Source: a virus
Lineage: Duplodnaviria > Caudoviricetes
Length of the DNA: 64,000 nt
Reading direction: 5' to 3' (one strand)
Virus record (IMG/VR): IMGVR_UViG_3300028284_000006
Span: 699 to 64,698 of that record
Below, piece after piece: positions 3,925-56,000 of the stretch. Each line of letters opens with the position of its first letter. The stretch's first letter is position 1. Position numbers and translations under genes: made by a program. The notes beneath the pieces are model-generated. The model worked only from the letters and a program-made list of their open reading frames with translations. It was not told where the DNA came from and ran no database searches.

Positions 3925-4179
3925 CTATTTTCTTGATTTAGCGCCTGAACATTTCCAACGTTTTCTAGATAAGTTGTTAGGAGTGTTAGGATCGTTCCTT
4001 TTTTTAGCAGAAAGCCTCTTCTTTATACCCAAACTCCTCGCACAGTAGCTGTCGCCCTTAGAGGTACCTGGTTTTACCCTTGGTCCTCCACCTTTTGCCT
4101 TACCTGCCTGTCCATAACTAACCTTCTTACCCGATGCAGTTACCTTAACTTTCGCTTTCCCTTTCCTTGGTGTTGCCAT
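3925..4179 (-). CDS. Small basic phage protein (DUF6321-like)
   Basis: KVSYGQAG...SYCARS...NNLSRKRWKC motifs. Confidence 0.65.
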   Translation of the reverse strand: MATPRKGKAKVKVTASGKKVSYGQAGKAKGGGPRVKPGTSKGDSYCARSLGIKKRLSAKKRNDPNTPNNLSRKRWKCSGAKSRK

Positions 4180-4182
4180 GTT

Positions 4183-4269
4183 CTAGTATTTTTTCACAGA
4201 TGCAGGTTTCGCAGCTGCAACTTTCTTTTTCTTTACCTTGCATTTAGTTTTTGTGCCTGATTTCTTCAT
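4183..4269 (-). CDS. Tiny lysine-rich peptide
   Basis: MKKSGTKTKCKVKKKKVAAAKPASVKKY; fills the gap between 4179 and 4271. Confidence 0.55.
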   Translation of the reverse strand: MKKSGTKTKCKVKKKKVAAAKPASVKKY

Positions 4270-4270
4270 A

Positions 4271-4555
4271 TTATTTCTTTTTTTTGGTTCCTCTTGCTCT
4301 TTTGTCTCCAGAAGTGTTCTTTTTACTTCCTCTATTCTCTGATTGAGCTTCAAGGCGTGGTTTTTTACCAGAACGATGAGAAACATCTTTCTTATCTCCA
4401 TTTCCATAAGTACCGAAGAGCCTATTCAGACGATTCAGTTCACTCCTGCGCTTACTTTCACCCTTCTTCTTGTTGTACTTAGATTGATATTCGTTCTTCT
4501 TCGCTCTGGCTTCAGGATTGTCCCTGTAATATTTTGCTGATCTACTTAGACCCAT
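4271..4555 (-). CDS. Small basic HNH-like protein
   Basis: GDKKDVSH...SENRG resembles a minimal beta-beta-alpha-Me motif. Confidence 0.5.
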   Translation of the reverse strand: MGLSRSAKYYRDNPEARAKKNEYQSKYNKKKGESKRRSELNRLNRLFGTYGNGDKKDVSHRSGKKPRLEAQSENRGSKKNTSGDKRARGTKKKK

Positions 4556-4571
4556 TTTTTCTTGTTTTATG

Positions 4572-4592
4572 CAAAGATATGTATTATATTTG
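4572..4592. promoter_or_regulatory. Back-to-back Bacteroidota-type -7 promoter elements
   Basis: TATCTTTG on minus (4572-4579) and TATATTTG on plus (4585-4592). Both match TAnnTTTG and point at divergent genes. Confidence 0.7.
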
Positions 4593-4597
4593 TATCT

Positions 4598-5128
4598 ATG
4601 AAAAAGAGAAAGATGCGTAGAAAGTACGAGCGCAAGAATCCTAAGAAAAGTTATACGGGCGGTTTGAGGAAGAATTACAACAAAAAAGCACCAAGCTCAG
4701 ATTACCTTAAATTTTTTAGGGTTGTCAGGTACTGGGCTAAAAGGACCCACGGAGTGGGTCTCGCTGACCTCGAGATTTTACTTTTTTTATACAGCAAAGG
4801 GCTCTTTAAAAGAGCAGATTTTGATGAATTTAGCGAAATTTTCCCTTGGGATCAAGCTAGATTCGAGAAATTACGCAAGGATGGGTGGATTTCTGTTTGG
4901 AGGAAGTATGACGGATACAACGCAGCACTTTACGAACTATCATACAAAGGTAAAAGACTTTGCTTGTCAGTTTACAAGAAACTATCCGGTGAAGAAAAAA
5001 TATCAGAGTCACCAGGGGTGAACCCTATATTCAAAAAAAACCCGCCATACACCGATAAGGTATACAAGCGGGCTATCAAAAAAATGAATAGTTCTACAAA
5101 ACCACCACAACATCCCTCTCAAGAATAA
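4598..5128 (+). CDS. Winged-helix (MarR-like) DNA-binding protein
   Basis: LADLEILLFLY...FEKLRKDGWISVW...LYELSYKGKRL wHTH pattern; likely ATG at 4598. Confidence 0.6.
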   Translation: MKKRKMRRKYERKNPKKSYTGGLRKNYNKKAPSSDYLKFFRVVRYWAKRTHGVGLADLEILLFLYSKGLFKRADFDEFSEIFPWDQARFEKLRKDGWISVWRKYDGYNAALYELSYKGKRLCLSVYKKLSGEEKISESPGVNPIFKKNPPYTDKVYKRAIKKMNSSTKPPQHPSQE

Positions 5129-5351
5129 TAGAGTACTGATTCTCATCAATAATCATCTTATGTCCTGCTGACTTGTCGTAGTAGATAATATCTCCTTCCT
5201 TAATGAACTCAACATTAGTTCCTGGGTTGATAATTTTACCCTTCTTGTATCTGAAGTCCTTCGTGTCCTCACCCGTAAGTAATAGGCCAGAAGCTGTCTT
5301 CATCTCCTCTACAATCTCTTTTATTATAATGTACTTGTTTATTGCTTTCAT
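5094..5351 (-). CDS. groES: Co-chaperonin GroES
   Basis: KTASGLLL mobile loop, GKIINPG, IKEGDIIYY, IILERDVV; translationally coupled to groEL. Confidence 0.9.
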   Translation of the reverse strand: MKAINKYIIIKEIVEEMKTASGLLLTGEDTKDFRYKKGKIINPGTNVEFIKEGDIIYYDKSAGHKMIIDENQYSIILERDVVVVL

Positions 5352-6892
5352 TATCTCTTGTATGTTACAATTGCGTTAGTAGTTAGTATCGTTGTTGCAA
5401 CTGAGACCGCATTCTTAAGCGCATTCTTGGTTACTTTGGCAGGATCAATAACACCCATCTTGTACATGTTACCATACTCACCTGTCTTCACATTATACCC
5501 CTCGCCGAACTCGTTAATCTTCGCTGGGTATATTTTACCTGCGTTGTCAACAATCTGCTTGAATGGAGACATTAAGGCAAACCTCATAATCTTCTCGTCA
5601 AACGATTCACCATCAAGTGCATAAGACTCGAATAAAAGTGCAGCTCCACCACCAGGCAAGATACCATCCTCGATTGCAGACCTAACAGCACAAACAGCAT
5701 CCTCAACACGGTCGTGTTTCTCTTTCTGCTCAATGTCAGAGTCTCCACCAACAAAGACCACTCCTATACCACCAGATAAACTAGCAATTCTCTCCTTCAA
5801 GAAATCCTTCTCGCTTTTTTGGGTAGACCTGTTGTCCGCCTCCTTAAGCTCCTCAATCCTGTCAGATACAACATCTGTCCTTCCCTCGTCCCTTACAATA
5901 ACAGTCTTGTCAGTAGACACAACTATTTTCTGTGCATGACCAAGGTCCGCCATAGTAATCAAACTAAGGTCGTCACCCGTCGCGTCACTGAAGTACTTCG
6001 CGCCAACAGACATCGCAATGTCAGACATAAGCTCCTTGGTTTTATAACCAAACTGTGGAGGTACAATGTTACAAATCTTTAACCCATTCTTCACAACGTT
6101 CATACCAAGGGTGTTGATTACGTTGTCAGAACACTTCCCAATGATTAACAGCTTCTTGCCCTGTTGGATAATCGGCTTCAGTATGTTCTCAATACTAAGT
6201 ATGTTGCTAATATCTAAGTCCGTTGCCAATATATAAGCGTCGTCAAGGACGCACTCGTCGTTTTTTTGGTTGTTAATGAACAGCCTACTAGTGAAACCTC
6301 TGTCGATTTTTATTCCGTTCGTTACCTCGAAGTAAGTTCTGTCCGTTTGGCTGTTCTCGACAGTTACGACACCGTCTTTACCAACCTGTTTGTATACGTC
6401 AGCAATTAATAACCCTGTATCTCTATCGTTGTTGGCAGATATAGTTGCAACATCCTTCAATGTTCTACCTGTCACTTTCTTTGCTCTCTTAGACAATTTG
6501 TAAATTACCTGGTCAGCGATTTTATTCATATTACGAGTAAGCTCCGTCACATTAATTGATGGGTTCTCCTTAATTACACGCATACCCTCCAACACAATTG
6601 CCTCTGTTAGAACAATAGCCGTTGTTGTACCGTCACCAGCAGATGTTGCTGTTCGGTCAGCGGCTTCCTTCACCATTCTAACAGCGAGGTTCTCAACAGG
6701 ATCTTGTAAGTTGATAGACTTAGCTACCGTTACACCATCCTTGGTTACCGTTAATCCTTTTGTGTGTGTTTGTGATTCTAGAATTACTGTTTTACCTAGA
6801 GGACCTAGTGTACTTTTTACAGCTTTAGATATCTTAGTGATACCACTAATAAGTTTGTCTCGACCTTCTTGGTCAAAAAATAAGTCATTCAT
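5351..6892 (-). CDS. groEL: Chaperonin GroEL
   Basis: STLGPLG, VTKDGVTVAKSI, AGDGTTTA, GILPGGG, GVIDPAKVT. Likely start MNDLFF at 6892; no GGM tail. Confidence 0.97.
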   Translation of the reverse strand: MNDLFFDQEGRDKLISGITKISKAVKSTLGPLGKTVILESQTHTKGLTVTKDGVTVAKSINLQDPVENLAVRMVKEAADRTATSAGDGTTTAIVLTEAIVLEGMRVIKENPSINVTELTRNMNKIADQVIYKLSKRAKKVTGRTLKDVATISANNDRDTGLLIADVYKQVGKDGVVTVENSQTDRTYFEVTNGIKIDRGFTSRLFINNQKNDECVLDDAYILATDLDISNILSIENILKPIIQQGKKLLIIGKCSDNVINTLGMNVVKNGLKICNIVPPQFGYKTKELMSDIAMSVGAKYFSDATGDDLSLITMADLGHAQKIVVSTDKTVIVRDEGRTDVVSDRIEELKEADNRSTQKSEKDFLKERIASLSGGIGVVFVGGDSDIEQKEKHDRVEDAVCAVRSAIEDGILPGGGAALLFESYALDGESFDEKIMRFALMSPFKQIVDNAGKIYPAKINEFGEGYNVKTGEYGNMYKMGVIDPAKVTKNALKNAVSVATTILTTNAIVTYKR

Positions 6893-6915
6893 TTGATTAA
6901 ATTTTTTTGATGCCA

Positions 6916-6923
6916 CAAATATA
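6916..6923 (-). promoter_or_regulatory. Bacteroidota -7 promoter element for groEL-groES
   Basis: TATATTTG 24 nt upstream of the ATG at 6892. Confidence 0.6.
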
Positions 6924-6949
6924 AGAATAATATATTAAAGAAATGACCT

Positions 6950-7127
6950 GTGTCGACTTTTGAAAAATAAGGGGCAAACCCTATCTATATATAATACATT
7001 ATAATATATATTATTTTTTTTTCTGTAAATACAGAACAAAAGTCGACACCTCGACACATTCCCAATGATAGCAAGGGCTGAGGGCGTGTCGATACCGTGT
7101 CGACTTTTGATTTCCGTGTCGACTTTT
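6950..7127. repeat. TCGACAC/GTGTCGA box array L with AT-rich tract (candidate origin)
   Basis: Boxes at 6950, 7042, 7050, 7086, 7097 and 7116; AT-rich tract ~6982-7040 between inverted boxes. Confidence 0.85.
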
Positions 7128-7740
7128 AAGTATACTTGAAAGTAAGCTCTATAAATAACAGGTGAAACGTCAATTGTTTGTAGTTATATTCTTCATCCTT
7201 TGGAAAAAATGAAAAGCCGACACAAGGTCCGACATCGATTCTGTTTACTAGTTCTATAATCATACAGCAAAAGTAAACATATTTTTTTTATTCAGATATA
7301 TACAGCAAATGGGTTATATATACATATGACGCGATCGATCGGCCCAAGAAACCGTTTTTTTTTCGGCACAGGGGGTCTTTTTTTTTCATCATCACTCAGA
7401 ATTTTTGCCTTTTTTATAGGCTCGCGCGCGCGTGTACATCTATTACCACATCAATCTCATTTTACACATCTACACAATACACGTACAAAGGTACATACTC
7501 ACACACAATCCCAGGCAACCACACATTAACATATGTAAACACAAAAACAGAGCTCAAATTAACTTGTGATAAGATAAAATTGTGTACATACATACAAGGG
7601 AAGGATAGCCCTTTATATATTTATTGAAGGATCAAATTTTTCATGCAAAAAAGTTTATCTCTTAAAACTCTGGTTTCCAGCGATTTGATTGAAATATGGA
7701 TACGAAATGTGTATTTTTTTAAAAAAAGTTTACATTTTAT

Positions 7741-7771
7741 TTTGTCAAGTCGTTCAAATAGATTTACTTTG
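7741..7771 (+). promoter_or_regulatory. Putative early promoter
   Basis: TTTG (7741), 19-nt spacer, TTACTTTG (one mismatch to TAnnTTTG), upstream of the first early ORF. Confidence 0.45.
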
Positions 7772-7813
7772 CCTCGTCGGAGGGAATTAACCCACGCACT
7801 AAAACAATATAAT

Positions 7814-7927
7814 ATGAAAATTTCAGAAGAATCAAAGTTTTTTATAATGTTTGTTGTGATAACTGCTTTATTTTGGACACTAATAATTTGGGGATTGAAT
7901 ACATCTACTCCATACAATCCAATATAA
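7814..7927 (+). CDS. Small early membrane peptide
   Basis: MKISEESKFFIMFVVITALFWTLIIWGL..., one TM, A-rich leader. Confidence 0.6.
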   Translation: MKISEESKFFIMFVVITALFWTLIIWGLNTSTPYNPI

Positions 7928-7938
7928 AAAAAATAATC

Positions 7939-8145
7939 ATGAAACAATCAATCACAAAACGAGCGTACATCAAACTTATTGAAACGTATGTAATGAACTG
8001 TTATGACATCAGCGATATGTTAAATCCTACTTACAAAAATATCGATGCACAGAAATGTCTTGATATAGCTAACCAAATCAACGAAGAGGTTAACGGAGTT
8101 GAATATTGGGAGTATTCAGAAAAACTAACTCTTGAAAATTTATAG
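7939..8145 (+). CDS. Hypothetical early protein
   Basis: Start MKQSITKRAY after an A-rich leader. Confidence 0.6.
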   Translation: MKQSITKRAYIKLIETYVMNCYDISDMLNPTYKNIDAQKCLDIANQINEEVNGVEYWEYSEKLTLENL

Positions 8146-8147
8146 TC

Positions 8148-8246
8148 ATGAAAAAATCAACCAAGGAAACAATCACAAACATTTTATTTTTAACCGCGTT
8201 ATTCACAGCATTTTATCATGTGCTGTGGTTCGCCTCAAAATTTTAA
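8148..8246 (+). CDS. Small early membrane peptide
   Basis: Read manually: MKKSTKETITNILFLTALFTAFYHVLWFASKF. Confidence 0.55.
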   Translation: MKKSTKETITNILFLTALFTAFYHVLWFASKF

Positions 8247-8249
8247 ACC

Positions 8250-8366
8250 ATGAAAAAAATCATCATTATCATTATCATTTCAATAGGAATACAATCATGC
8301 GGTAGCACAGGATACTGCACAACAAAATCAACTAACCGTGGCGGAGGCTACTACGTAAATAGATAA
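8250..8366 (+). CDS. Small lipoprotein
   Basis: Read manually: MKKIIIIIIISIGIQS-CGSTGYCTTKSTNRGGGYYVNR, with a signal peptidase II-type lipobox. Confidence 0.65.
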   Translation: MKKIIIIIIISIGIQSCGSTGYCTTKSTNRGGGYYVNR

Positions 8367-8370
8367 AATT

Positions 8371-8511
8371 ATGTTTAAAAAAGAAACAATTGAGGACAAT
8401 AGCTTGTTAGTATTAGCGCTTGAAACATTGCTAGAGCAATTAAAAGATGGAGATGGCGAGCAAGTAAAGATTGATAGAGTAGAGTCTTTAATCTCAAAAA
8501 TAAATAGTTAA
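8371..8511 (+). CDS. Hypothetical early protein
   Basis: 46-aa ORF with AAAATTATG start context. Confidence 0.55.
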   Translation: MFKKETIEDNSLLVLALETLLEQLKDGDGEQVKIDRVESLISKINS

Positions 8512-8555
8512 CTGACGAAACGCCTAACGGCGTCTTAACTTAAAAATGTAAAATT

Positions 8556-8792
8556 ATGGCTTATAACGGATGGAGTAACTACGCAACATGGAAGGTAGCA
8601 TTAGAAGTATTTGATGGAACAGAGTTTGAAGAAACGGTTGAACCATCATTCTTAGAAGAGTTAGCAGAGGAAATAATCTTCGGAGATACAGACAGAAACA
8701 CATTTGTTTCAAACTACGCACAATCCTTCTTAGAAGGTGTTGACTACTTAGAAATTGCAGAGGTTATAAACAGAGAAATATTATCAAACTAA
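8556..8792 (+). CDS. Conserved acidic phage early protein (YNGWxNYxTW family)
   Basis: MAYNGWSNYATWKVAL motif; very acidic. Confidence 0.7.
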   Translation: MAYNGWSNYATWKVALEVFDGTEFEETVEPSFLEELAEEIIFGDTDRNTFVSNYAQSFLEGVDYLEIAEVINREILSN

Positions 8793-8796
8793 AATT

Positions 8797-8994
8797 ATGA
8801 AAGCATTTATACAAAAAGAAATTTCGTTGATAAATTCAAACGAGAATCACTACGGTAGTGACGAGTCAATAGACAACCAAAACACAGTGTTTGACTATTT
8901 CATAGACAACAATATTGTTGACCAAGATTGGTTCGATGACAGGCTAAGATTTAGCGATGTAGAAAGATTAACAGCATTAATGAACTTAATATGA
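8797..8994 (+). CDS. Hypothetical early protein
   Basis: ORF track; AAAATTATG start. Confidence 0.6.
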   Translation: MKAFIQKEISLINSNENHYGSDESIDNQNTVFDYFIDNNIVDQDWFDDRLRFSDVERLTALMNLI

Positions 8995-9131
8995 TGGAGA
9001 AAACAATATCATACAAGAATCAGTACGGAAACTACAAGGTAGTGACACGTACATTTAAGGACGAAAAACATTTCGACAATTGGTACTACTTTATGAGTGG
9101 TAGAGGGTACAAAATTATATCAGTAAACTAA
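8991..9131 (+). CDS. Hypothetical early protein
   Basis: Read manually: MMEKTISYKNQYGNYKVVTRTFKDEKHFDNWY...; ATGA overlap with the upstream gene. Confidence 0.55.
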   Translation: MMEKTISYKNQYGNYKVVTRTFKDEKHFDNWYYFMSGRGYKIISVN

Positions 9132-9144
9132 AAAAACAAAAATT

Positions 9145-9366
9145 ATGGCAAGATTTATATTAGATGTTATGACGGATGATTGGATTAGGGTTCTCGATGT
9201 TATTGAGAGAGACAAATTTCTTTCAAGCGAGGTCACATCAATAAGATGTATTGACGAAACAAACGACAGTCAGTTTTATTCATGGGATAAAGACACGACA
9301 CCAATGATGAACGCATTAAGTGAAAAGCAATTAGAAAACGACAGAGAAATTCTGTCAAAATATTAG
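9145..9366 (+). CDS. Hypothetical early protein
   Basis: ORF track; AAAATTATG start. Confidence 0.6.
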   Translation: MARFILDVMTDDWIRVLDVIERDKFLSSEVTSIRCIDETNDSQFYSWDKDTTPMMNALSEKQLENDREILSKY

Positions 9367-9372
9367 AACATT

Positions 9373-9603
9373 ATGGACAAAAAAATATTAGTAAACGACA
9401 ATAATTTTACAGAGTGCGTAAATGAAATTGCTACACAAATTACAGAAACGTATTTCGGATTAGAAACTTGGGAAATTGAAGATGGACATAGGTCATTTAC
9501 ATTTACAGATGAAGCACAGTCTTTTTACAATGACAGTTTTAGTGAAATTGAATCATTAATTAACAACACGTTAAACGTGTGGAACAAAAAATCAGAATTA
9601 TGA
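9373..9603 (+). CDS. Hypothetical acidic early protein
   Basis: ORF track; operon packing. Confidence 0.6.
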   Translation: MDKKILVNDNNFTECVNEIATQITETYFGLETWEIEDGHRSFTFTDEAQSFYNDSFSEIESLINNTLNVWNKKSEL

Positions 9604-9737
9604 AAGTAAAAAATGAAAGCCTAACAAATAATTTAAAATTTTGGAGGGAAAGCCTAAAGAAAGCAATGATTAAAGGCGATTTAAATTATGCAATGCATTG
9701 CGACACCATTATTAATAAATTAAAACAAGAATTATGA
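9600..9737 (+). CDS. Hypothetical early protein
   Basis: Read manually: MKVKNESLTNNLKFWRESLKKAMIKGDL...; ATGA overlaps on both sides. Confidence 0.6.
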   Translation: MKVKNESLTNNLKFWRESLKKAMIKGDLNYAMHCDTIINKLKQEL

Positions 9738-10103
9738 GACAAGAAGTAAAAGACTACATTGAGGAAGGTAACGCAGTTGAGGTTGCTAGAGGTATATATG
9801 CTACGCAAGATAGTATGTACAGAAATAGATTGACTGAAAAGGATTTGGAGCAGTACATGATAGACGAGTATGGGCTTAGTGAGATTCAAAATAATAAAAT
9901 ATCTGACGATAAGTTAATGAAGTTAATCCCAAAAATGCCTAAAGGCTATGTTGGTAAAAATACAGGAATTAAAAAGTATACAATCTCAACACCTGATGGT
10001 AAAGATATAATTCTAACACAGAGTAAAGATAAGAAAAATTGGTCTTATGAACCATCTAATGTTGCATTAAAATTTTGGAGGGAAAGCCTAAAGAAAGCAA
10101 TGA
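9633..10103 (+). repeat. Exact 37-bp direct repeat (9633-9669 and 10067-10103)
   Basis: TTAAAATTTTGGAGGGAAAGCCTAAAGAAAGCAATGA occurs twice. Confidence 0.95.
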
Positions 10104-10282
10104 GTAAAAATTATTCATGGAATGAAGAAACCATAAGCTACTTTCAATTCACAAGTTCTTACATATCGGATGAAGACCTTTATGAAAAAATAAAAGAGTT
10201 CGTAGAAAATGACTGTGCAATAGAAGAGGGCGAGACTGAAGAAGATTTAGTAAATGACCTTTACAAAAAAATAAAATTATGA
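9734..10282 (+). CDS. Hypothetical early protein, probably a mosaic fusion
   Basis: 182 aa; contains the second copy of the 37-bp repeat. Confidence 0.6.
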   Translation: MRQEVKDYIEEGNAVEVARGIYATQDSMYRNRLTEKDLEQYMIDEYGLSEIQNNKISDDKLMKLIPKMPKGYVGKNTGIKKYTISTPDGKDIILTQSKDKKNWSYEPSNVALKFWRESLKKAMSKNYSWNEETISYFQFTSSYISDEDLYEKIKEFVENDCAIEEGETEEDLVNDLYKKIKL

Positions 10283-10677
10283 GAAAAGAGTACAATAATA
10301 GATATGGTGATGTATATACCTTCACCGAATTAGAAAATGGTAATATTCAATGGAGTGGTAATTTTGAATACACTCGATTTGGTTGGCCAAACGATTACAC
10401 CAAAGCTTGGGAGAAGTTTCAAGAAGAATATGGTGGGTTAGATTACGAAGAATTTTTAGGTAGTATTCATACCTATGATGAAGAAACAAACCAATATGTA
10501 TTTGCAGACCTTCTACCATTGGTTACTTCAAAAACTAATGTAATCAATATGGTAGACCCAAGTGGTGGCCCATATATTACGGAAGGAACTGATATGAAAA
10601 ATTTTGGATTAAAAGGAATAGTGAAAGAGTTTAAATCGAATAAAGATGGATATGAGATATTGGTTCAAAAAAAGTGA
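10279..10677 (+). CDS. Conserved hypothetical phage protein
   Basis: NRYGDVYTF and MVDPSGGPYI motifs. Confidence 0.65.
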   Translation: MRKEYNNRYGDVYTFTELENGNIQWSGNFEYTRFGWPNDYTKAWEKFQEEYGGLDYEEFLGSIHTYDEETNQYVFADLLPLVTSKTNVINMVDPSGGPYITEGTDMKNFGLKGIVKEFKSNKDGYEILVQKK

Positions 10678-10721
10678 GGTAGAACTTAGAAGTAATTGTA
10701 AAATCTGAAACTGAATAAATT

Positions 10722-11003
10722 ATGAAAGTACAAATTAGTCAAAGATATGTTTACCACAAAGTAGGTACAATAGAAATAGAAATAAATAAGGATGATTATG
10801 AAAAGTATGATAGCTTAGATGAATATTTAACAGAAAATGAGTATTTATGGGAGGAAAAAATAGACGAAGCAACATCAAATTCAGACCTTGAATTCGGTTT
10901 TGGTTTAGGATATTACGCTAATGAATACTACTTTAATGAGGAAGAAAGGGAAACTGAAACGCGTTACGATTGCAAAGAGTTACAAACAGGTGGGCATCTT
11001 TAA
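10722..11003 (+). CDS. Acidic hypothetical protein
   Basis: ORF track; ends GGHL. Confidence 0.6.
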   Translation: MKVQISQRYVYHKVGTIEIEINKDDYEKYDSLDEYLTENEYLWEEKIDEATSNSDLEFGFGLGYYANEYYFNEEERETETRYDCKELQTGGHL

Positions 11004-11015
11004 AAAATAAAAAAT

Positions 11016-11300
11016 ATGAAATCAGAACATAGTAATTTTTGGGGTATAGATGAAGCATCTATTGATAATTTATTAAAAGATGGAGAATTAGATTTAGGCA
11101 AGTGGTATTTTTATTACAACGATACCATGAAAGAATGGGAGGCTACAATGAGCGGTACATATACTCATGTATTTAAAAATATAGATGACTTATTGCAAAG
11201 AAAGAATGAAGTTGATTTTTACGAACACAATCAAGAACTTAGCGACAATAGAGGAGAAGAAGTGATAACGAATTCTAAAGGTCAAAAAAGAATATATTAA
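11016..11300 (+). CDS. Hypothetical early protein
   Basis: ORF track; A-rich leader. Confidence 0.6.
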   Translation: MKSEHSNFWGIDEASIDNLLKDGELDLGKWYFYYNDTMKEWEATMSGTYTHVFKNIDDLLQRKNEVDFYEHNQELSDNRGEEVITNSKGQKRIY

Positions 11301-11314
11301 CTAAAAAAAAAGAT

Positions 11315-11989
11315 ATGAGAATATTAGTAGCGTGTGAGGAAAGTCAATCCATCACAAAAGAATTAAGAGAGTTGGGTCACGAAGCATTTAGTTGTGACCT
11401 ATTACCTTGTAGCGGTGGACACCCCGAGTGGCACTACCAACAAGATGTTTTTGAAGTAATAGACAAAGGTTGGGACATGATGATAGCACACCCTCCATGC
11501 ACATACTTAGCTGTAAGCGGTGCGAGGTGGATGTACCATCCCGATGACAAGGATTTACCTACAGACGAAAGGAGGCCACATCCAAAGCATTTAGATAGAA
11601 AAAAATTACAGGATGATGCTTTGGATTTTGTTCAAAGACTCATGGATGCACCTATAGATAGGATAGCGATAGAGAATCCTGTATCTGTGATTAGCAGTAG
11701 GATCAAAAAACCAAACCAAATTGTTCATCCGTATATGTTCGGAGATAAGGCAAGTAAGGGTACTTGTTTATGGCTAAAGAACTTGCCAAAATTAGTGCCT
11801 ACTGATTTAGTAGACAAGGGAGAGTTCTTTGAATTCACGAGCAAGAAAGGTGTGAAGAAGAGACAACCAATGTGGTATTACAAGGCTTTAAGTAAAGCAA
11901 AAACACCATCAGAAAGAAGAACATTAAGAAGTAAAACGTTCCAAGGTATGGCAAAAGCAATGGCTAATCAATGGACAAAAAATCAATAG
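11315..11989 (+). CDS. C5 cytosine DNA methyltransferase-like protein (short phage type)
   Basis: ILVACEESQ (variant motif I), AHPPCTYL (catalytic PC), IENPV, and C-terminal RSKTFQGMAKAMANQW. Confidence 0.8.
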   Translation: MRILVACEESQSITKELRELGHEAFSCDLLPCSGGHPEWHYQQDVFEVIDKGWDMMIAHPPCTYLAVSGARWMYHPDDKDLPTDERRPHPKHLDRKKLQDDALDFVQRLMDAPIDRIAIENPVSVISSRIKKPNQIVHPYMFGDKASKGTCLWLKNLPKLVPTDLVDKGEFFEFTSKKGVKKRQPMWYYKALSKAKTPSERRTLRSKTFQGMAKAMANQWTKNQ

Positions 11990-11991
11990 AA

Positions 11992-12264
11992 ATTATGGGA
12001 GCAACAAGTATTCATTACACGGCAAGTAAAAAACATTACAAGTCATCAAAAGAGGCTTATCAAGGCCTAAGACAAGAAGAACTATACGAGCATGGACATG
12101 ACCCATACAGCGGTACGATCGCAACGTGTACATTAGAGGGTAAAATATCAGAACCTAAGAATGAAGACGAGTATGAGGAAGCATTGGACAGAATACACAA
12201 AAGGGAGTGTAAGTATTACGAGACAGACAAGGAGTATGTGTTCATTGGATGGGCAAGTTGTTAG
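11992..12264 (+). CDS. Hypothetical early protein
   Basis: Likely start MGATS; HGHDPYSGTIAT and YVFIGWASC motifs. Confidence 0.6.
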   Translation: MMGATSIHYTASKKHYKSSKEAYQGLRQEELYEHGHDPYSGTIATCTLEGKISEPKNEDEYEEALDRIHKRECKYYETDKEYVFIGWASC

Positions 12265-12270
12265 ATAAAT

Positions 12271-12507
12271 ATGGAAATAAAACACGTAGCATTGACTTGG
12301 ACAACCGATGATGTCCGCAATGCATTAAAGCACAGAACAAGTAAGGAGATTTTAGAGTTTGAAAAAGAAACAGGATCTTCAGATAATGACTTAGCCAATT
12401 GGTTAGATTGTATGTTTGATGATAATCAAAATGAAATTTGTAGTTTTATTAATGAACTTATTGATGATGCAATTACAATCACTACTTACAAATGCAGACA
12501 AGTATAA
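12271..12507 (+). CDS. Hypothetical protein
   Basis: ORF track; WTTDDV motif resembles WSVDDI in the ORF at 13222. Confidence 0.55.
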   Translation: MEIKHVALTWTTDDVRNALKHRTSKEILEFEKETGSSDNDLANWLDCMFDDNQNEICSFINELIDDAITITTYKCRQV

Positions 12508-12523
12508 GAAAAACAAAAGAAAA

Positions 12524-13111
12524 ATGACAAAAAAAACAAAAACAACTAACAAACCAGCTTCAAATGAAGCCCAATCTCTAGGGGAAGCTCCAGCACCGGA
12601 CAACAGTTCAAAAATTAACCACCAACAAATGCTAAGTGATGCCTATTGGCAAATCATTGAAAGTCTCGAATGGGGGAAGGATGGAGATTACAAACGAACT
12701 CAAAATGAGTTTAGACGAATGAAAATATCTGGATTAGAAAAATCCATTATTGCAGACTTCGTTAGAGAAAAAGTAAGAGAATTAAATGTAGATTTTAAAC
12801 AACATTGGTTAGCAAATGACTTCGGATGGGTATCCGATGACAGTTGGTGGGATTTACGAGCAGAGGTTGTTGGTCGAGGAAAAGAATTTTACGAGAACAT
12901 CTCAGTTTATAAATTAGGTGAAATGGCAGCAAACCTAGACTACAGAGAAAACTTTCAGTATACATTCTCAGATTTTCAACCACTAAATCATTCTAATGGT
13001 TCGCGTGGTAAACTTACCGATGGTGTCTATTCCAAGCTGTACAATGGTAAAGTATCTAAGGTTGTAGCAGTAAACTACAATAACAAAACCTTTAACACCA
13101 AAAAGAGTTAG
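12524..13111 (+). CDS. DUF4240-like protein
   Basis: YWQIIE and SDDSWWDLRAEVVGRGKEFYE motifs; likely start MTKKTK. Confidence 0.6.
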   Translation: MTKKTKTTNKPASNEAQSLGEAPAPDNSSKINHQQMLSDAYWQIIESLEWGKDGDYKRTQNEFRRMKISGLEKSIIADFVREKVRELNVDFKQHWLANDFGWVSDDSWWDLRAEVVGRGKEFYENISVYKLGEMAANLDYRENFQYTFSDFQPLNHSNGSRGKLTDGVYSKLYNGKVSKVVAVNYNNKTFNTKKS

Positions 13112-13221
13112 TAAATTGCACTAAATTAAAATATAAATTATGAAAACAATATTATCAATAGTGCTGTGGATAGCTGTAGCGAGAGTATTCATGTGGTTAG
13201 GAACTAAAATATTTAAAGACA

Positions 13222-13440
13222 ATGACTAAGACAGAGCAAGCAAAGGTGTTACTACACCAAAACGGATATTACATCGACAACCTGTGGAGTGTTGATGACA
13301 TACAACAGAACTTTTACTGCACAGAACACGAGGCGTTCGAGGTATTGGAGGATGTTTTCAACAGCGACTACATCAACGAAGCGATTGCTGGAGAGTTAGT
13401 GAGAGTGGCAGAGGAACGTGATTTAAGACTTAGGGACTGA
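13222..13440 (+). CDS. Hypothetical protein
   Basis: GYYIDNLWSVDDI motif. Confidence 0.6.
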   Translation: MTKTEQAKVLLHQNGYYIDNLWSVDDIQQNFYCTEHEAFEVLEDVFNSDYINEAIAGELVRVAEERDLRLRD

Positions 13441-13459
13441 TGACAGACAAGGAGAAGGA

Positions 13460-13539
13460 ATGAACCGAAAGATGAACCGTAAAAATAGTTGTTTGTAAGG
13501 GTTTTCTATAAAAATGAACCGTAAAATGAACCGTAAAAA
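13460..13539 (+). repeat. Four ATGAACCG(T/A)AA repeats in two tandem pairs
   Basis: Copies at 13460, 13472, 13514 and 13526. Confidence 0.85.
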
Positions 13540-13543
13540 GAAT

Positions 13544-14203
13544 ATGAATATTTTAGAATTATTTAGTGGAAGCAGAAGCATAGGAAAGGTAGGGTCTGAT
13601 AGGAGTCATAATGTATTTTCATCAGACTTTCATGACTTTAAAGACACGGATTACGTTGTAGATATATTGGAGTTTGATATAAGTAAAGTTCCTTTTATAC
13701 CCGACATGATATGGGCAAGCCCACCTTGTGAGTCATTTAGTGTGGCCTCTATTGGTAGGCATTGGATAAAGGGAGAGGTGTTCAGTCCTAAGACAGAAAA
13801 CGCAAAGCAAGGTGTTAAGATCCTAATGAAGACAATGGAGATTATACAGAAATTCAAGGAAATTAATCCCAACCTTATATGGTACGTAGAAAACCCGAGA
13901 GGTAAGATGAGGAAGTCTCCTCACTGGGCCAATGTAGAGCATAAATTAAACACCGTAACGTATTGTCAGTATGGAGACGATAGAATGAAGCCAACAGATA
14001 TTTGGAACAACAACAGCAATTGGTCTTCAAGGGATATGTGTAAGAACGGAATGCCATGCCATATATCAGCGCCCAGGGGTTCATCAACAGGGACACAAGG
14101 TAGGTCATCTTACTATGACAGAAGTAAAATACCTCAACAATTATGTGAGGAAATCATTAAATCAACAGAGAAAAATTTTGGTCAGACCAATTATAATCAG
14201 TAA
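13544..14203 (+). CDS. C5 cytosine DNA methyltransferase-like protein
   Basis: ILELFSGSRS (motif I), WASPPCESFS (motif IV), YVENPRG (motif VI), YCQYGDDRMKPTDIW. Confidence 0.85.
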   Translation: MNILELFSGSRSIGKVGSDRSHNVFSSDFHDFKDTDYVVDILEFDISKVPFIPDMIWASPPCESFSVASIGRHWIKGEVFSPKTENAKQGVKILMKTMEIIQKFKEINPNLIWYVENPRGKMRKSPHWANVEHKLNTVTYCQYGDDRMKPTDIWNNNSNWSSRDMCKNGMPCHISAPRGSSTGTQGRSSYYDRSKIPQQLCEEIIKSTEKNFGQTNYNQ

Positions 14204-14216
14204 ATTTGTTAACGAT

Positions 14217-14441
14217 ATGGAAAACTACATTAAAGATTTTACGCAATGGTTGAGAAGTGTGAACGATGACTTTTTAGGTTGTTCACTCTCAACAAAGAAT
14301 GACATGACTGCCTTCATGAAGGAGGTAAATGAGATGGATGTTGATCCATTGGTGCTAGACAGGTTCTTGCATGATGGGTTTGACACTAATATGAAGACAT
14401 TTAAAATGTACTTAAAGATATACTATGCACAACAAAAGTAG
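14217..14441 (+). CDS. Hypothetical protein
   Basis: ATG at 14217, just after a TAAATTTG element at 14201. Confidence 0.55.
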   Translation: MENYIKDFTQWLRSVNDDFLGCSLSTKNDMTAFMKEVNEMDVDPLVLDRFLHDGFDTNMKTFKMYLKIYYAQQK

Positions 14442-14601
14442 GAACTACACGAAACAGACACCTTGGAAAAACAAGATAGGTGTATTTAAGGCTCATGGTG
14501 GATGGATTGTAAGGGTTTGGGAAGACGGATACATGAAGACAATAAGTAGGCACAGTACAGAGAAGGAGGCATTAATTAAATTTAACGAAAAGAATGGATA
14601 G
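14425..14601 (+). CDS. Hypothetical protein
   Basis: Read manually, 58 aa: ...IGVFKAHGGWIVRVWEDGYMKTISRHSTEKEAL, weakly AP2-like. Confidence 0.45.
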   Translation: MHNKSRNYTKQTPWKNKIGVFKAHGGWIVRVWEDGYMKTISRHSTEKEALIKFNEKNG

Positions 14602-14817
14602 GTGTAAGTATTTTTTAGACAACAAACTTAATTGTATAACAGGTTGGAAAAGTGAAAGGACTAACCCTAGACGAAAAAAGAACCAAGATAAAATATTATT
14701 AACAGAAGAAGACAATGAGTAGTAAGGAACACTTTAACGAGTGGATGAAACAAATTAAAAATATATACTACTCTGATCACCATCAGATGACAGAGGCGTA
14801 TAAAAAAATCCAAGAAA

Positions 14818-15246
14818 ATGATAAATCAGTTAGTAGAATTAAAAGTATTATTAGACAGAGAACCGAGAACCAACAGGAGAGATTGGAATAAGGTTGTAGG
14901 AAAAGAACTATCAGACCTTTTAGTTAAGGAAGGTTATGTAAAAAAGATTGGCATCACTAAGGGTGTAAAATGGTTCTGGAATGCTGAGAACCCATCCTAT
15001 GAAATGGTTAACACCTTAACTCAATCACTAACTCCTCAAGAAGAACCAAATTTTTTAGAAATATTCAATGACACAGATGAAACAACTTTCGTTGATGTTC
15101 TAAGATCTAGAAAAATAAGTTTAAGTATTGGCAACGGTGTTAAGATTTTTTTCGGTGACGACTCTATGATTGTAAGAAGGGGAGAGAAGGAGATGATTGT
15201 CAAAACTCCAGGAGAATTTAGTAATTTACTTAATTTTTTGACATAA
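14818..15246 (+). CDS. Hypothetical protein
   Basis: 142-aa ORF ending at the start of box array R. Confidence 0.6.
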   Translation: MINQLVELKVLLDREPRTNRRDWNKVVGKELSDLLVKEGYVKKIGITKGVKWFWNAENPSYEMVNTLTQSLTPQEEPNFLEIFNDTDETTFVDVLRSRKISLSIGNGVKIFFGDDSMIVRRGEKEMIVKTPGEFSNLLNFLT

Positions 15247-15331
15247 GTCGACACCAAAAGAAAAAGTCGACACGGTATCGACACGTATCTAGCCCTTACT
15301 ACTACTAGAATTGTGTCGAGGTGTCGACTTT
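15245..15331. repeat. TCGACAC/GTGTCGA box array R (inverted copy of 7039-7125)
   Basis: Boxes at 15247, 15266, 15277, 15313 and 15321; the reverse complement aligns without gaps to array L. Confidence 0.9.
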
Positions 15332-15366
15332 ATACCTTAATTTTAAGAAAAAATAAAATATATTAT

Positions 15367-15567
15367 ATGACAAAATATAAAGGAGTATATAAAGGAAGAA
15401 ACAGGAACGGTAAACGTTATTGGATAGGAAGGTTTACAAAAGATAAAGTAACACACAATTATGGTATGTACGAGACCGAAAGAGAGTGCGCTGTGGCTCA
15501 TGACATCTATGTGTTGAAGAAAGGAATTGACAGGCGAACTAATATTTTAAAGAAAAAACTTGTTTAG
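15367..15567 (+). CDS. Stand-alone AP2-domain DNA-binding protein
   Basis: KYKGVY...KRYWIGRF...YGMYETERECAVAHD matches the AP2 consensus YRGV..W.A.I..LG.F.T.EEAA.AYD. Confidence 0.75.
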   Translation: MTKYKGVYKGRNRNGKRYWIGRFTKDKVTHNYGMYETERECAVAHDIYVLKKGIDRRTNILKKKLV

Positions 15568-17443: not shown

Positions 17444-17468
17444 AAAGCCCCCTTAATTGGGGGTTTTT
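17444..17468 (+). terminator. Intrinsic terminator
   Basis: AAAGCCCCC-TTAATT-GGGGGTTTTT. Confidence 0.8.
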
Positions 17469-17486
17469 AACCTTAAAAACAACAAC

Positions 17487-17978
17487 ATGCAAAAATTAAA
17501 TGAAATACTAGATTCAATCTCAGCGCGAACAGGATTGGATATTAGAAAAAATACTAGGCAGATTGAGTATGTTATGGCTAGGAACATATACTACAAGATA
17601 GCTAAAGACGATTTAAGATTGGGTACTTTAAGCGCTGTTGGTAAACCATTAAAAAAAGACCACACTACAGTATTGCATGGATTAAAGAACTTCCATCAAA
17701 TTGAGAGCTACTACCCAAGAATGTACAATGATTACCTTTTTGTGAAGGATCTTTTTGATGAAAATGAGGACAAGGAATCTTCTTACGAGAAGTTAATAGC
17801 GGTTGATAATTCTTTAACAAAATTAAAGAAGGAACACAAAGAATTACAGGATAAATATTACAAGTTATTATTGGATAACGATTCAAGCTACATTGTAAAT
17901 AAGATGAATGAATTGAGTGTAGAGAATCAAGAAATTTTTATCATGAGAGTTAAGGCAATCTTAAACATGATGAAGTAA
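17487..17978 (+). CDS. DnaA domain IV-like HTH protein with coiled coil
   Basis: RQIEYVMARNIYY...LSAVGKPLKKDHTTVLHG matches the Bac_DnaA_C signature (RDHTTV). Confidence 0.75.
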   Translation: MQKLNEILDSISARTGLDIRKNTRQIEYVMARNIYYKIAKDDLRLGTLSAVGKPLKKDHTTVLHGLKNFHQIESYYPRMYNDYLFVKDLFDENEDKESSYEKLIAVDNSLTKLKKEHKELQDKYYKLLLDNDSSYIVNKMNELSVENQEIFIMRVKAILNMMK

Positions 17979-55999: not shown

Positions 56000-56000
56000 A

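What the first reader, a model, noticed from the sequence alone, without database searches (positions are those of the whole stretch)
6950..15366. Two inverted, identically spaced TCGACAC box arrays bracket the early region: candidate bipartite origin or DNA-looping system
Seen: 7039-7125 and the reverse complement of 15245-15331 align without gaps. Each has five boxes in the order GTCGACAC, CTCGACAC, a 28-bp spacer, GTGTCGAT, GTGTCGAC, then another GTGTCGAC starting 19 bp after the previous one. Box variants and spacings are conserved, while the spacer has drifted except for TAGYAAGGGCT, which points to selection for protein binding. Both arrays have AT-rich outer flanks, and the left has an extra box (6950) enclosing an AT-rich tract. 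I noticed GTCGAC only about twice elsewhere. Known: phage P4 replication needs two separated, orientation-dependent octamer-iteron sites (ori1 and crr) bound by a primase-helicase, and SaPI origins have inverted iterons around an AT-rich tract. Inference: this is a bipartite origin for the primase-helicase at 17978. Alternatives are a regulatory loop over the early genes or the ends of an invertible 8.1-kb segment.
Basis: partly seen in the sequence, partly recalled or inferred. Interest (0 to 1): 0.9.

Follow-up and report, generated by a model that had tools for sequence, protein, structure and literature searches.

The report
Paired protein-binding box modules in phage
Two inverted copies of a conserved array of short DNA boxes bracket the early genes of an uncultured marine phage; they are real protein-binding sites, most likely a replication origin with a helper copy or a gene-timing switch, but which of these is not settled.

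Summary
Eleven of the 12 TCGACAC in the window lie at 6950, 7039-7125 and 15245-15331 (3.1 expected; 0 of 100 shuffles reach 12). Arms 7014-7125 and 15245-15356 are the window's longest inverted repeat.

The arrays are cores of a larger conserved module: 3-4 distal boxes, a 27- or 38-bp spacer, an inverted proximal pair, a T-run, an A-run, an AT-rich microsatellite, then further box(es).
- Module L precedes groEL in 9 of 10 relatives.
- Module R precedes a stand-alone AP2 gene in 44 of 45 loci with upstream sequence.
- Boxes change in concert between lineages and are helically phased, so they are protein-binding sites.

Function is unresolved. I favour an iteron-type origin with a truncated auxiliary copy (about 0.4) over a transcription switch or boundary (about 0.35).

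No support was found for inversion, but only contigs were available.

The binder is unknown. AP2 shows no co-variation with box type and is absent from MW202828, which keeps both modules. A DnaA-domain-IV-like protein and the primase-helicase occur in every relative searched.

This scan holds no look-alike on other DNA.

The parts
7086..7123 (-). Module L, three distal boxes (A-run + GTCGACAC on the minus strand). Start-to-start spacings are 19 and 11 bp.
7058..7085 (.). Module L spacer, 28 bp. Its core is shared with module R and with L013.
7042..7057 (-). Module L proximal inverted box pair (GTGTCGAg GTGTCGAC read towards groEL), followed by a T-run.
6957..7041 (.). A-run and TA-rich tract between the proximal pair and the extra box. 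6982-7021 is the least stable 40 bp of the window.
6949..6956 (+). Extra box, opposite in orientation to the proximal pair, just upstream of the groEL promoter-like -7 element (6916-6923, minus strand).
5351..6916 (-). groEL-like chaperonin gene downstream of module L. The true start is probably near 6890. groES lies at 5094-5351.
7129..7266 (-). Conserved ~45-aa ORF whose stop abuts module L. It contains the variant boxes GCCGACAC and TCCGACAT at 7214-7235.
15247..15284 (+). Module R, three distal boxes, with the same 19- and 11-bp spacings. They begin right after the stop codon of ORF 14818-15246.
15285..15312 (.). Module R spacer, 28 bp.
15313..15328 (+). Module R proximal inverted box pair, identical to that of module L.
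15329..15366 (.). T/A-rich tract with an A-run running up to the AP2 start codon. It is the third least stable 40 bp of the window. It has no microsatellite and no downstream box, so this is a truncated form of the module.
15367..15567 (+). Stand-alone AP2-domain protein, 66 aa.
14818..15246 (+). 142-aa protein with a winged-helix-like N-terminus, encoded just upstream of module R. It is absent from G001 and MW202828, so it is not the general binder.
17457..17978 (+). DnaA-domain-IV-like protein (HTH with a DHTTV signature). A candidate box binder or initiator.
17978..20404 (+). Primase-helicase (BT4734_N, PriCT_1, DUF5906) with a winged-helix-like C-terminus at about residues 690-800.

Best explanation
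Each array is the core of a conserved nucleoprotein-assembly module. One phage-encoded sequence-specific protein binds the boxes (consensus A-run + TCGACAY) on one face of the helix. Module L is the complete form. It has three distal boxes, a spacer, an inverted proximal pair, an A-run, the most easily melted AT-rich tract of the genome, and then a box in the opposite orientation. I read module L as an iteron-type replication origin, at which the DnaA-domain-IV-like protein and/or the winged-helix C-terminus of the SF3-type primase-helicase assemble and open the AT tract. The phage has no DNA polymerase gene among those I annotated, so it would then recruit the host replisome. Module R is a truncated paralogue at the head of the replication gene block. 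It would act as an auxiliary site, comparable to P4 crr or to control iterons, and would at the same time gate expression of the AP2 gene and the replication genes behind it. Shown here: the arrays are real; they are conserved and paired in relatives; the boxes are helically phased and change in concert; the AT tract is the least stable DNA in the window; and the replication proteins with DNA-binding domains are present. Inferred, not shown: which protein binds; that DNA synthesis starts here; and any pairing of the two copies. An origin role and a transcriptional role are not mutually exclusive.
For: - Real, selected sites: enrichment statistics. These are the only 7-mers with at least 4 copies within 200 bp in the window, apart from one unrelated ATGAACC cluster.
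- Conservation: module L is found in 9 of 10 groEL relatives with upstream sequence and in MW202828. Module R is found in 44 of 47 AP2 loci, 2 of the other 3 having no upstream sequence.
- Concerted change: L013 (module L) and L050/L051 (module R) have T(C/T)AACAC in place of TCGACAC in distal and proximal boxes alike. Among near-identical phages all boxes are either ...ACAT or ...ACAC, in 7 against 3 loci, including a box inside an upstream ORF.
- Phasing: in 36 distinct modules, 39 of 78 box spacings are 10-12 bp and 35 of 78 are 18-21 bp. Spacers are 26-28 bp in 17 modules and 37-40 bp in 17, one helical turn apart.
- Unwinding element: 6982-7021 ranks 1st and 15328-15367 ranks 3rd for lowest duplex stability in 64 kb. 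In module L the tract is flanked by boxes of opposite orientation.
- Within-genome copies resemble each other more than copies in other genomes in 3 of the 4 genomes compared: window 74%, G001 75%, MW202828 66%. In the fourth, G002, the two copies share 65%, below the 67% its first copy shares with G001's second.
- Replication proteins: the DnaA_C-like protein scores 32.6 bits in Pfam against a cut-off of 31.5. It occurs in 5 of 5 relatives' records searched, including MW202828.
- The primase-helicase C-terminus models as winged-helix-like at pLDDT 87, with best Z 6.8 and ORC/Cdc6/Cdt1 winged-helix rows at Z 5-6.3.
- In MW202828 the second module abuts the primase-helicase start codon and faces no gene, which argues against a pure promoter role.
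Against: - No experiment and no read-depth profile is available. All 24 runs are kept as contigs and none is RNA.
- The GC-skew minimum coincides with the strand switch.
- Both modules have the same polarity towards a downstream gene (groEL, AP2), and both are met distal side first by outward early transcription. This fits a transcriptional role as well or better.
- In several lineages only 26-28 bp separate the proximal pair from the AP2 start codon, leaving little room for an unwinding element.
- In relatives, 1-4 boxes lie directly upstream of a canonical Bacteroidota-type -33/-7 promoter of groEL, a classical regulator position (read).
- More distant primase-helicase relatives (L008-L011, 39% identity) have no such arrays within the DNA held.
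- No binder could be tied to the boxes. AP2 has no column separating the box types. For the DnaA_C-like protein the HTH is identical between a T-type (L066) and a C-type (L084) phage; its six separating columns lie outside the HTH and rest on one T-type lineage.
- All winged-helix matches are below Z 8.
Confidence: 0.4

Rival explanations
1. Temporal transcription switch or boundary. The modules are operator and roadblock or activator arrays that mark the two outer edges of the early region. A phage protein (AP2, or another early protein) binds the boxes. It stops or gates read-through of early transcripts, and it controls the groEL/late promoter and the AP2/replication block. The two copies might also pair and loop out the early region.
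For: - Both modules start directly after the stop codon of the last early gene on their side and are followed by the first gene of the next block.
- They have the same polarity relative to the downstream gene in the window, G001, G002 and L016.
- Module R is linked to AP2 in 44 of 45 loci with upstream sequence.
- Promoter-proximal boxes abut the -33/-7 elements of groEL in relatives; in L018 four boxes sit next to the -33 TTTG.
- The inner distal boxes and the proximal pair form a hairpin followed by a T-run (dG -19.7 and -19.4 kcal/mol, z -3.9 and -4.4), which looks like a terminator.
- AP2 is a transcription-factor fold. Plant AP2 domains bind TACCGACAT (passage in PMC5983730) and CAACA (passage in PMC4340050), which resemble the two box variants.
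- MW202828 carries a related 16-bp palindrome before about 15 early and middle genes.
Against: - Module R has no canonical -33/-7 promoter, and the genome-wide count of the -7 motif is no higher than in shuffles.
- In MW202828 module 2 faces a terminator hairpin and no gene, AP2 is absent, and yet module 1 has perfect boxes.
- In MW202828 and L019 all boxes point the same way, so the hairpin is not conserved.
- No AP2 column separates C-type from T-type boxes.
- The linkage counts reflect shared descent, not independent events.
- No RNA data are available.
Confidence: 0.35
2. Site for DNA packaging, stepwise genome entry (an injection-stop signal) or partition. On this reading the arrays are bound by a terminase small subunit, an entry-control protein or a centromere-binding protein.
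For: - The arrays combine direct and inverted short boxes with an A-tract, as in some pac/cos and centromere sites (recalled, not tested).
MW202828 has a comparable CG/CA-rich repeat tract at L012:3240-3450.
Against: - No partition ATPase was found among the 40 proteins scanned.
- Two inverted pac sites would be odd.
- The terminase gene is 40 kb away.
- No read ends could be examined, because the runs are contigs only.
Confidence: 0.07
3. Plain intrinsic terminators. On this reading the inverted boxes matter only as an RNA hairpin followed by a U-run that ends early transcripts.
For: A hairpin plus T-run is predicted in both copies. Both copies are positioned right after stop codons.
Against: - The loop would be 28-38 nt.
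- The third distal box and the box(es) beyond the AT tract take no part in the hairpin.
- MW202828 and L019 have all boxes in direct orientation.
- Spacer lengths differ by one helical turn, a DNA-level constraint.
- No Rfam family matches at a meaningful score.
Confidence: 0.05
4. Ends of an invertible 8.1-kb segment, or other site-specific recombination sites.
For: It is the longest inverted repeat in the window, 112 nt.
Against: - Contigs of run X1 bridge both arrays in the reference arrangement with 0 differences, and none of the 9 listed joints changes strand. Contigs do drop rare variants.
- No recombinase family was hit among the 40 proteins scanned. Many small early ORFs were not scanned.
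- In MW202828 the two copies are direct, not inverted.
- The same orientation of the early region relative to groEL and AP2 is found in the window, G001, G002 and L016.
Confidence: 0.03

Closest known systems
Phage P4 ori / crr bipartite origin bound by the alpha primase-helicase
   Same: Two separated sites carry the same short iteron. The phage encodes a primase-helicase of the D5/P4-alpha kind with a winged-helix-like C-terminus and no polymerase of its own among the genes I annotated.
   Different: Binding and a need for both sites are untested. The match to the P4 origin-binding domain (1ka8) is only Foldseek rank 24, E 0.15. Here each site has a fixed 3 + 2 inverted layout with a phased spacer and lies directly before a gene.
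Iteron origins with an AT-rich tract flanked by repeats (lambda ori, SaPI ori, SPP1 oriL/oriR; recalled)
   Same: Phased repeats lie next to the least stable DNA of the genome, with boxes of opposite orientation on either side in module L. There are two copies in one genome, as in SPP1.
   Different: The AT tract is a variable microsatellite: (TA)n, (CT)n, (TAG)n, (TAC)n or (GA)n in different relatives. Module R often lacks it. No initiation data exist.
pSC101-type plasmid replicons: three direct iterons followed by inverted repeats at the rep promoter (recalled)
   Same: Module R has the same order: three direct repeats, then an inverted pair, then a small DNA-binding protein gene.
   Different: AP2 is 66 aa and unrelated to Rep proteins. 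It is missing from MW202828 while the modules persist there.
Regulatory box arrays at early/late switches (phi29 p4 sites; omega-protein heptad arrays of pSM19035; recalled)
   Same: Heptamer-size boxes occur in direct and inverted orientation at more than one promoter region, with A-tracts. The position is at the boundaries between temporal gene classes.
   Different: The boxes are spaced 11 and 19 bp apart rather than being contiguous. The regulator is unknown and there are no transcript data.
Plant DREB/RAV AP2 domains and their DRE (TACCGACAT) and CAACA sites (passages in PMC5983730 and PMC4340050)
   Same: The phage boxes (T/C)CGACA(C/T) and the variant TCAACAC contain these cores. A gene for an AP2-fold protein lies next to module R.
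   Different: This is a resemblance only. No AP2 residue separates the box types, AP2 sequences vary widely among phages with identical boxes, and MW202828 has boxes but no AP2.

Membership tests
Iteron-type replication origin | Several phased copies of one short motif | tested here: met
   5 + 1 boxes in module L and 5 in module R. Spacings of 10-12 and 18-21 bp account for 74 of 78 intervals in 36 distinct modules.
Iteron-type replication origin | Adjacent easily melted AT-rich tract | tested here: met
   6982-7021 ranks 1st and 15328-15367 ranks 3rd for lowest 40-bp stability in the window. Module R's tract is short and runs into the AP2 start codon.
Iteron-type replication origin | Iterons bound by the element's initiator protein | not testable with these tools
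The co-variation tests were negative or underpowered.
Iteron-type replication origin | DNA synthesis starts there, or the site supports autonomous replication | not testable with these tools
   Only contigs are available, with no depth profile. The GC skew is confounded by gene strand.
P4 ori/crr-type bipartite origin | Two separated sites with the same iteron, conserved as a pair | tested here: met
   Pairs are present in the window, G001, G002/L015, L016 and MW202828.
P4 ori/crr-type bipartite origin | Primase-helicase with a C-terminal origin-binding winged helix homologous to that of P4 alpha | tested here: inconclusive
   The model has mean pLDDT 87 and its C-terminal half (model residues 100-211) aligns with winged-helix domains. 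The best match is Z 6.8 (rmsd 2.5, 69 aligned) to the PurR winged helix. 1ka8 appears only at Foldseek rank 24, E 0.15.
P4 ori/crr-type bipartite origin | Both sites required, with orientation dependence | not testable with these tools
   The orientation is inverted in 4 genomes but direct in MW202828.
Operator / promoter-control array | Sites overlap or abut a promoter | tested here: inconclusive
   Boxes abut a -33/-7 promoter-like pair before groEL in relatives (read by eye). No such promoter is seen in module R, and the -7 motif is not enriched over shuffles.
Operator / promoter-control array | A cognate regulator gene that co-occurs with the sites | tested here: inconclusive
   AP2 is adjacent in 44 of 45 loci, but it is absent from MW202828, which keeps the modules.
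Invertible DNA segment | A site-specific recombinase gene | tested here: not met
   No recombinase family was hit among the 40 window proteins scanned. Many small early ORFs were not scanned.
Invertible DNA segment | Both orientations present in sequence data | tested here: inconclusive
   Contigs show only the reference orientation. Contigs drop rare variants.
AP2/ERF DNA-binding domain (protein 15367-15567) | Profile match to AP2 domains | tested here: met
   The profile of 8 homologues hits the WRI1 AP2 domain at 4.1e-10 and the TEM1 AP2 domain at 1.8e-3. Pfam AP2 matches 3 of 8 members, best 1.4e-8, though the window's own protein is below threshold.
DnaA domain IV (protein 17457-17978) | Pfam Bac_DnaA_C above its gathering score | tested here: met
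   32.6 bits against a cut-off of 31.5, residues 28-77. A DHTTV-type signature is seen in the window and in relatives; that this motif is the DnaA signature is recalled.

The most novel reading that the evidence does not exclude
One phage protein binds both modules and pairs them, in the manner of P4 ori-crr pairing or iteron handcuffing. This closes the 5-11-kb early region into a loop that shuts off early transcription and licenses replication at the same moment. In this reading the stand-alone AP2 protein reads the DRE-like (T/C)CGACA(C/T) boxes. That would make it a free-living viral counterpart of plant DREB factors, working with a DnaA-domain-IV-like initiator and an SF3 primase-helicase.
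Probability: 0.12. Interest if true: 0.8.

Novelty: new variant of a known kind. Interest (0 to 1): 0.5.

Why it matters
Almost nothing is known about how phages of marine Bacteroidota start replication or time their genes. This module is the only clustered repeat in the genome. It recurs as 36 distinct versions in marine metagenomes. It also has features that make it directly testable: fixed box phasing, spacers that differ by one helical turn, box changes in concert, and two candidate DNA-binding proteins encoded close by.

If module L is the origin, it gives a handle for building replicons and genetic tools for Flavobacteriia phages. If it is a switch, it defines the early to middle and late boundary of a widespread phage group. 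Either way, the natural box variants (G to A in the core, C/T at the end) are ready-made specificity mutants for binding studies.

Tried and rejected
- Megablast of 6800-15500 against the phage collection found no match.
- The search for related loci with the DnaA_C-like protein in viral contigs found no relative. I found it instead with the genome search and local tblastn.
- An exact 18-nt pattern from L013's proximal pair, searched in viral contigs, returned 3 further hits, all inside a coding region and not arrays. The L013-type module R was later found as L050/L051. That contig ends before the DnaA_C-like gene, so co-variation for the G-to-A box variant could not be tested.
- The cultured Flavobacterium phage elemoF (NC_055853.1) and the 39%-identity primase relatives L008 and L011 have no clustered 7-mers of this kind.
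- Co-variation: in AP2 no column separates the 7 T-type from the 3 C-type loci. In the DnaA_C-like protein six columns do, but they rest on one T-type lineage and lie outside the HTH.
- p142, although winged-helix-like, is absent from G001 and MW202828. The 80-aa conserved protein is a VRR-NUC nuclease. The 188-aa protein shared by all three complete genomes has no family, no PDB relative and only unnamed viral look-alikes.
- PDB sequence searches found nothing for the DnaA_C-like protein or for p142.
- Foldseek on the primase C-terminus gave no match at E <= 0.001.
- Complex prediction for primase-helicase with the DnaA_C-like protein gave no answer (score 0.00), which counts neither for nor against binding.
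- Rfam gave two matches far below their gathering scores.
- The -7 promoter motif is no more frequent than in shuffles.
- Two skip joints ending at 15338 and 15342 have only 22 letters on one side and lie in low-complexity A/T sequence, so I disregarded them. Parts of the stretch without cover in runs X2-X4 are no evidence.
- Literature: searches for bacteriophage + AP2 domain + iterons and for Cellulophaga phage + replication origin + promoter + Bacteroidetes listed nothing on such a module. I saw the listings only. Supplements were not consulted.
- Earlier notes of this scan: nothing turned up by sequence or by words.
- I also noted from memory that the box core differs at one of the five fixed bases of the recalled DnaA-box core T-N-C-A-C-A. 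I give this little weight.

Full report
**What the window is.** The window is bases 699-64698 of a 64,698-bp IMG/VR virus record rated 100% complete.

Gene content:
- primase-helicase, DnaA_C-like protein, PDDEXK exonuclease, SNF2 helicase and VRR-NUC nuclease;
- two DNA methyltransferases;
- groEL/groES and an M15 peptidase;
- portal, large terminase, a crAss-type muzzle domain and a 2,611-aa virion-type protein.

The nearest relatives are an uncultured freshwater-spring phage, MW202828.1, and phages of Flavobacteriia. This marks the window as a podophage of Bacteroidota. The runs that hold it are marine or seawater metagenomes.

Genes run leftward from about 7266 and rightward from 7326 to about 24.8 kb. 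The remainder (24.8-64 kb) is leftward.

**The observation.** It holds in every detail. The figures are in the observation check. TCGA is 2.4-fold depleted genome-wide, and the box is the only 7-mer family with four or more copies within 200 bp, apart from an unrelated ATGAACC cluster at 13460-13527.

**Anatomy.** Reading each array towards its neighbouring gene gives one common layout:
- three distal boxes, each an A-run followed by (G/T)TCGACAC, with start-to-start spacings of 19 and 11 bp;
- a 28-bp spacer;
- two proximal boxes in the opposite orientation, 8 bp apart;
- a T-run, then about 15 bp, then an A-run and AT-rich DNA.

Module L continues with a TA-rich tract and an eighth-position box at 6949-6956 in the orientation opposite to the proximal pair. 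A TAnnTTTG element (6916-6923, minus strand) and groEL then follow. Module R runs straight into the start codon of a 66-aa AP2-domain gene at 15367.

Each module begins right after a stop codon. For module L that is the stop of a conserved ~45-aa ORF (7129-7266, minus strand). For module R it is the stop of the 142-aa ORF 14818-15246. Early transcription running outward from the strand switch therefore meets both modules distal side first. This explains why the two copies are inverted.

**Relatives.**
- Of 11 groEL-linked IMG/VR loci, one starts inside groEL. Of the other ten, nine carry module L and one (L021) does not. L015 and L016 are near-identical, and L020 has a reduced form.
- MW202828 also carries module L.
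- Of 47 AP2-linked metagenome loci, two lack upstream sequence. Of the remaining 45, 44 carry module R, and one distant AP2 (L090) does not.
- Both modules were seen in one genome in the window, G001, G002/L015, L016 and MW202828. They are inverted in the first four and direct in MW202828.
- The distance between the two copies is 8.1 kb in the window, 4.8 kb in L015 and 10.9 kb in MW202828. It is about 7.4 kb in G001 if that record is circularly permuted.
- In G001, 7 of the 8 TCGACAC lie in the two modules.

**Evidence that the boxes are protein sites.**
1. Concerted change. L013 (module L) and L050/L051 (module R) have TCAACAC or TTAACAC and the matching inverted forms throughout. Among phages whose AP2 proteins are 87-100% identical, all array boxes plus a box inside an upstream ORF end either in T (7 loci) or in C (3 loci). 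In that ORF the switch causes a His/Arg change.
2. Helical phasing. In 36 distinct modules the box spacings cluster at 10-12 bp (39 of 78) and 18-21 bp (35 of 78). Spacers are 26-28 bp in 17 modules and 37-40 bp in 17, one helical turn apart.
3. Orientation can flip. In MW202828 and L019 all boxes point the same way while the layout is kept. An RNA or cruciform hairpin is therefore not the conserved feature, even though the window's copies can fold.
4. The two copies in one genome are each other's best match in the window (74%), G001 (75%) and MW202828 (66%).

**Who binds?**
- *AP2 protein.* It is a true AP2 fold by profile: WRI1 at 4e-10, and Pfam AP2 in 3 of 8 homologues. The boxes resemble the plant DRE TACCGACAT (passage in PMC5983730), and the variant boxes resemble the CAACA site of the RAV1 AP2 domain (passage in PMC4340050). 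Against it: AP2 sequences differ widely among phages with identical boxes; no AP2 column separates C-type from T-type arrays; and the complete genome MW202828 has no AP2 at E <= 10 yet has seven good boxes in module L.
- *DnaA-domain-IV-like protein (17457-17978).* It is present in all five relatives' records searched and in 18 further loci, and it keeps a DHTTV-type signature. Its HTH is identical in a T-type phage (L066) and a C-type phage (L084).
- *Primase-helicase.* It has a confidently modelled C-terminus that looks like a winged helix, with Z up to 6.8. The ORC, Cdc6 and Cdt1 winged-helix domains are among the rows, and P4's domain appears only weakly.
- *p142.* It is winged-helix-like but is missing from G001 and MW202828.

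AP2 and the DnaA_C-like gene behave as fast-evolving cassettes between highly conserved neighbours. The binder remains open.

**Function.**
For an origin:
- the iteron-like layout, next to the least stable DNA of the genome;
- boxes of opposite orientation on both sides of the AT tract in module L;
- a replication gene set that needs an origin-recognising protein;
- module 2 of MW202828, which abuts the primase-helicase gene and faces no gene.

For a transcriptional switch or boundary:
- the polarity of both modules towards downstream genes and towards incoming early transcription;
- boxes next to the groEL promoter elements in relatives;
- the tight AP2 linkage;
- very short distances between the proximal pair and the AP2 start codon in some lineages.

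The linkage counts reflect common descent. MW202828 is the only independent rearrangement, and there the polarity towards a gene was not kept. I therefore rank the origin reading first (about 0.4), with module R as an auxiliary and gene-gating copy. The pure transcriptional reading comes second (about 0.35). The two readings can both be true.

Inversion, packaging or entry signals, and plain terminators are minor rivals.

**Sequencing runs.** All 24 runs are held as contigs and none is RNA. In run X1, which may be the source sample, a 7,288-nt contig covers 6000-7902 and an 8,044-nt contig covers 14186-16500, both without a single difference. None of the nine listed joints changes strand.

**Novelty.** I found no description of this module. 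Two literature searches gave listings only, and earlier notes of this scan held nothing by sequence or by words. It is a new variant of known kinds (iteron origins or operator arrays), not a new category. Its fixed 3 + 2 phased design, its variable microsatellite and its paired placement around the early region are its distinctive features.

Noticed in passing
L012 (MW202828.1) 3997-15454: A perfect 16-bp palindrome, GTGTCGTTAACGACAC, occurs at least 15 times. Most copies lie right after a stop codon and 10-25 nt before the next start codon of early and middle genes. Its half-site resembles the window's box. It could be an operator or an RNA processing or stability hairpin.
   Followed up: partly
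window 7129-7266 (minus strand): An unannotated, conserved ~45-aa ORF whose stop abuts array L. It is conserved at the amino-acid level in L013, L014, L015 and L023. It contains the variant boxes at 7214-7235.
   Followed up: partly
window 13460-13527: ATGAACC(G) occurs four times around the start of the methyltransferase-like ORF 13514-14203. This is the only other clustered 7-mer in the window.
   Followed up: no
window, genome-wide: The 8-mer TAGATATA and its complement occur 20 times, the most frequent non-trivial 8-mer. It is possibly a promoter element.
   Followed up: no
window 15367-15567 and 17457-17978; L044, L050: The AP2 and DnaA_C-like genes are hypervariable cassettes. In L044 the exonuclease, p217 and the primase N-terminus are 92-94% identical to the window, but AP2 is 61% and DnaA_C-like 51%. 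In L050 the exonuclease and p217 are 94-95%, but AP2 is 47%, p118 62% and p142 44%.
   Followed up: partly
L066:3044-3388 and homologues: A 115-aa ORF lies between the p142 homologue and module R in one lineage and holds a box inside its coding sequence. The first base of this box switches A/G together with all array boxes, in 7 against 3 loci, and changes His to Arg.
   Followed up: partly
module L in relatives (L013-L020, L023; L012:2900-2960): The tract between the A-run and the promoter-proximal box is a different microsatellite in different phages: (TA)n, (CT)n, (TAG)n, (TAC)n or (GA)n.
   Followed up: no
L032, L077, L086 module R: ACTATAGGGAGA lies directly after the proximal pair. From recall it matches the initiation part of T7-type promoters. 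No single-subunit RNA polymerase was found among the 40 proteins scanned in the window.
   Followed up: no
window 9633-9674 and 10067-10108: A 42-nt direct repeat at 98% identity, 434 bp apart, in the early region.
   Followed up: no
L012 3240-3450; window 7300-7620: An odd repetitive non-coding tract (CG- and CA-rich repeats) lies at the strand switch in MW202828.
   Followed up: no
window 4562-5128 (+): A 188-aa gene on the opposite strand inside the leftward block next to groES. It is conserved in G001 (69%) and MW202828 (43%), where the depositors call it a repressor. It has no family, no PDB relative and only unnamed viral look-alikes.
   Followed up: partly
window 53700-63900: Many copies of 30-85-nt repeat units lie inside the large tail-fibre-like genes (families D1-D6). 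Earlier notes of this scan had already recorded them.
   Followed up: no
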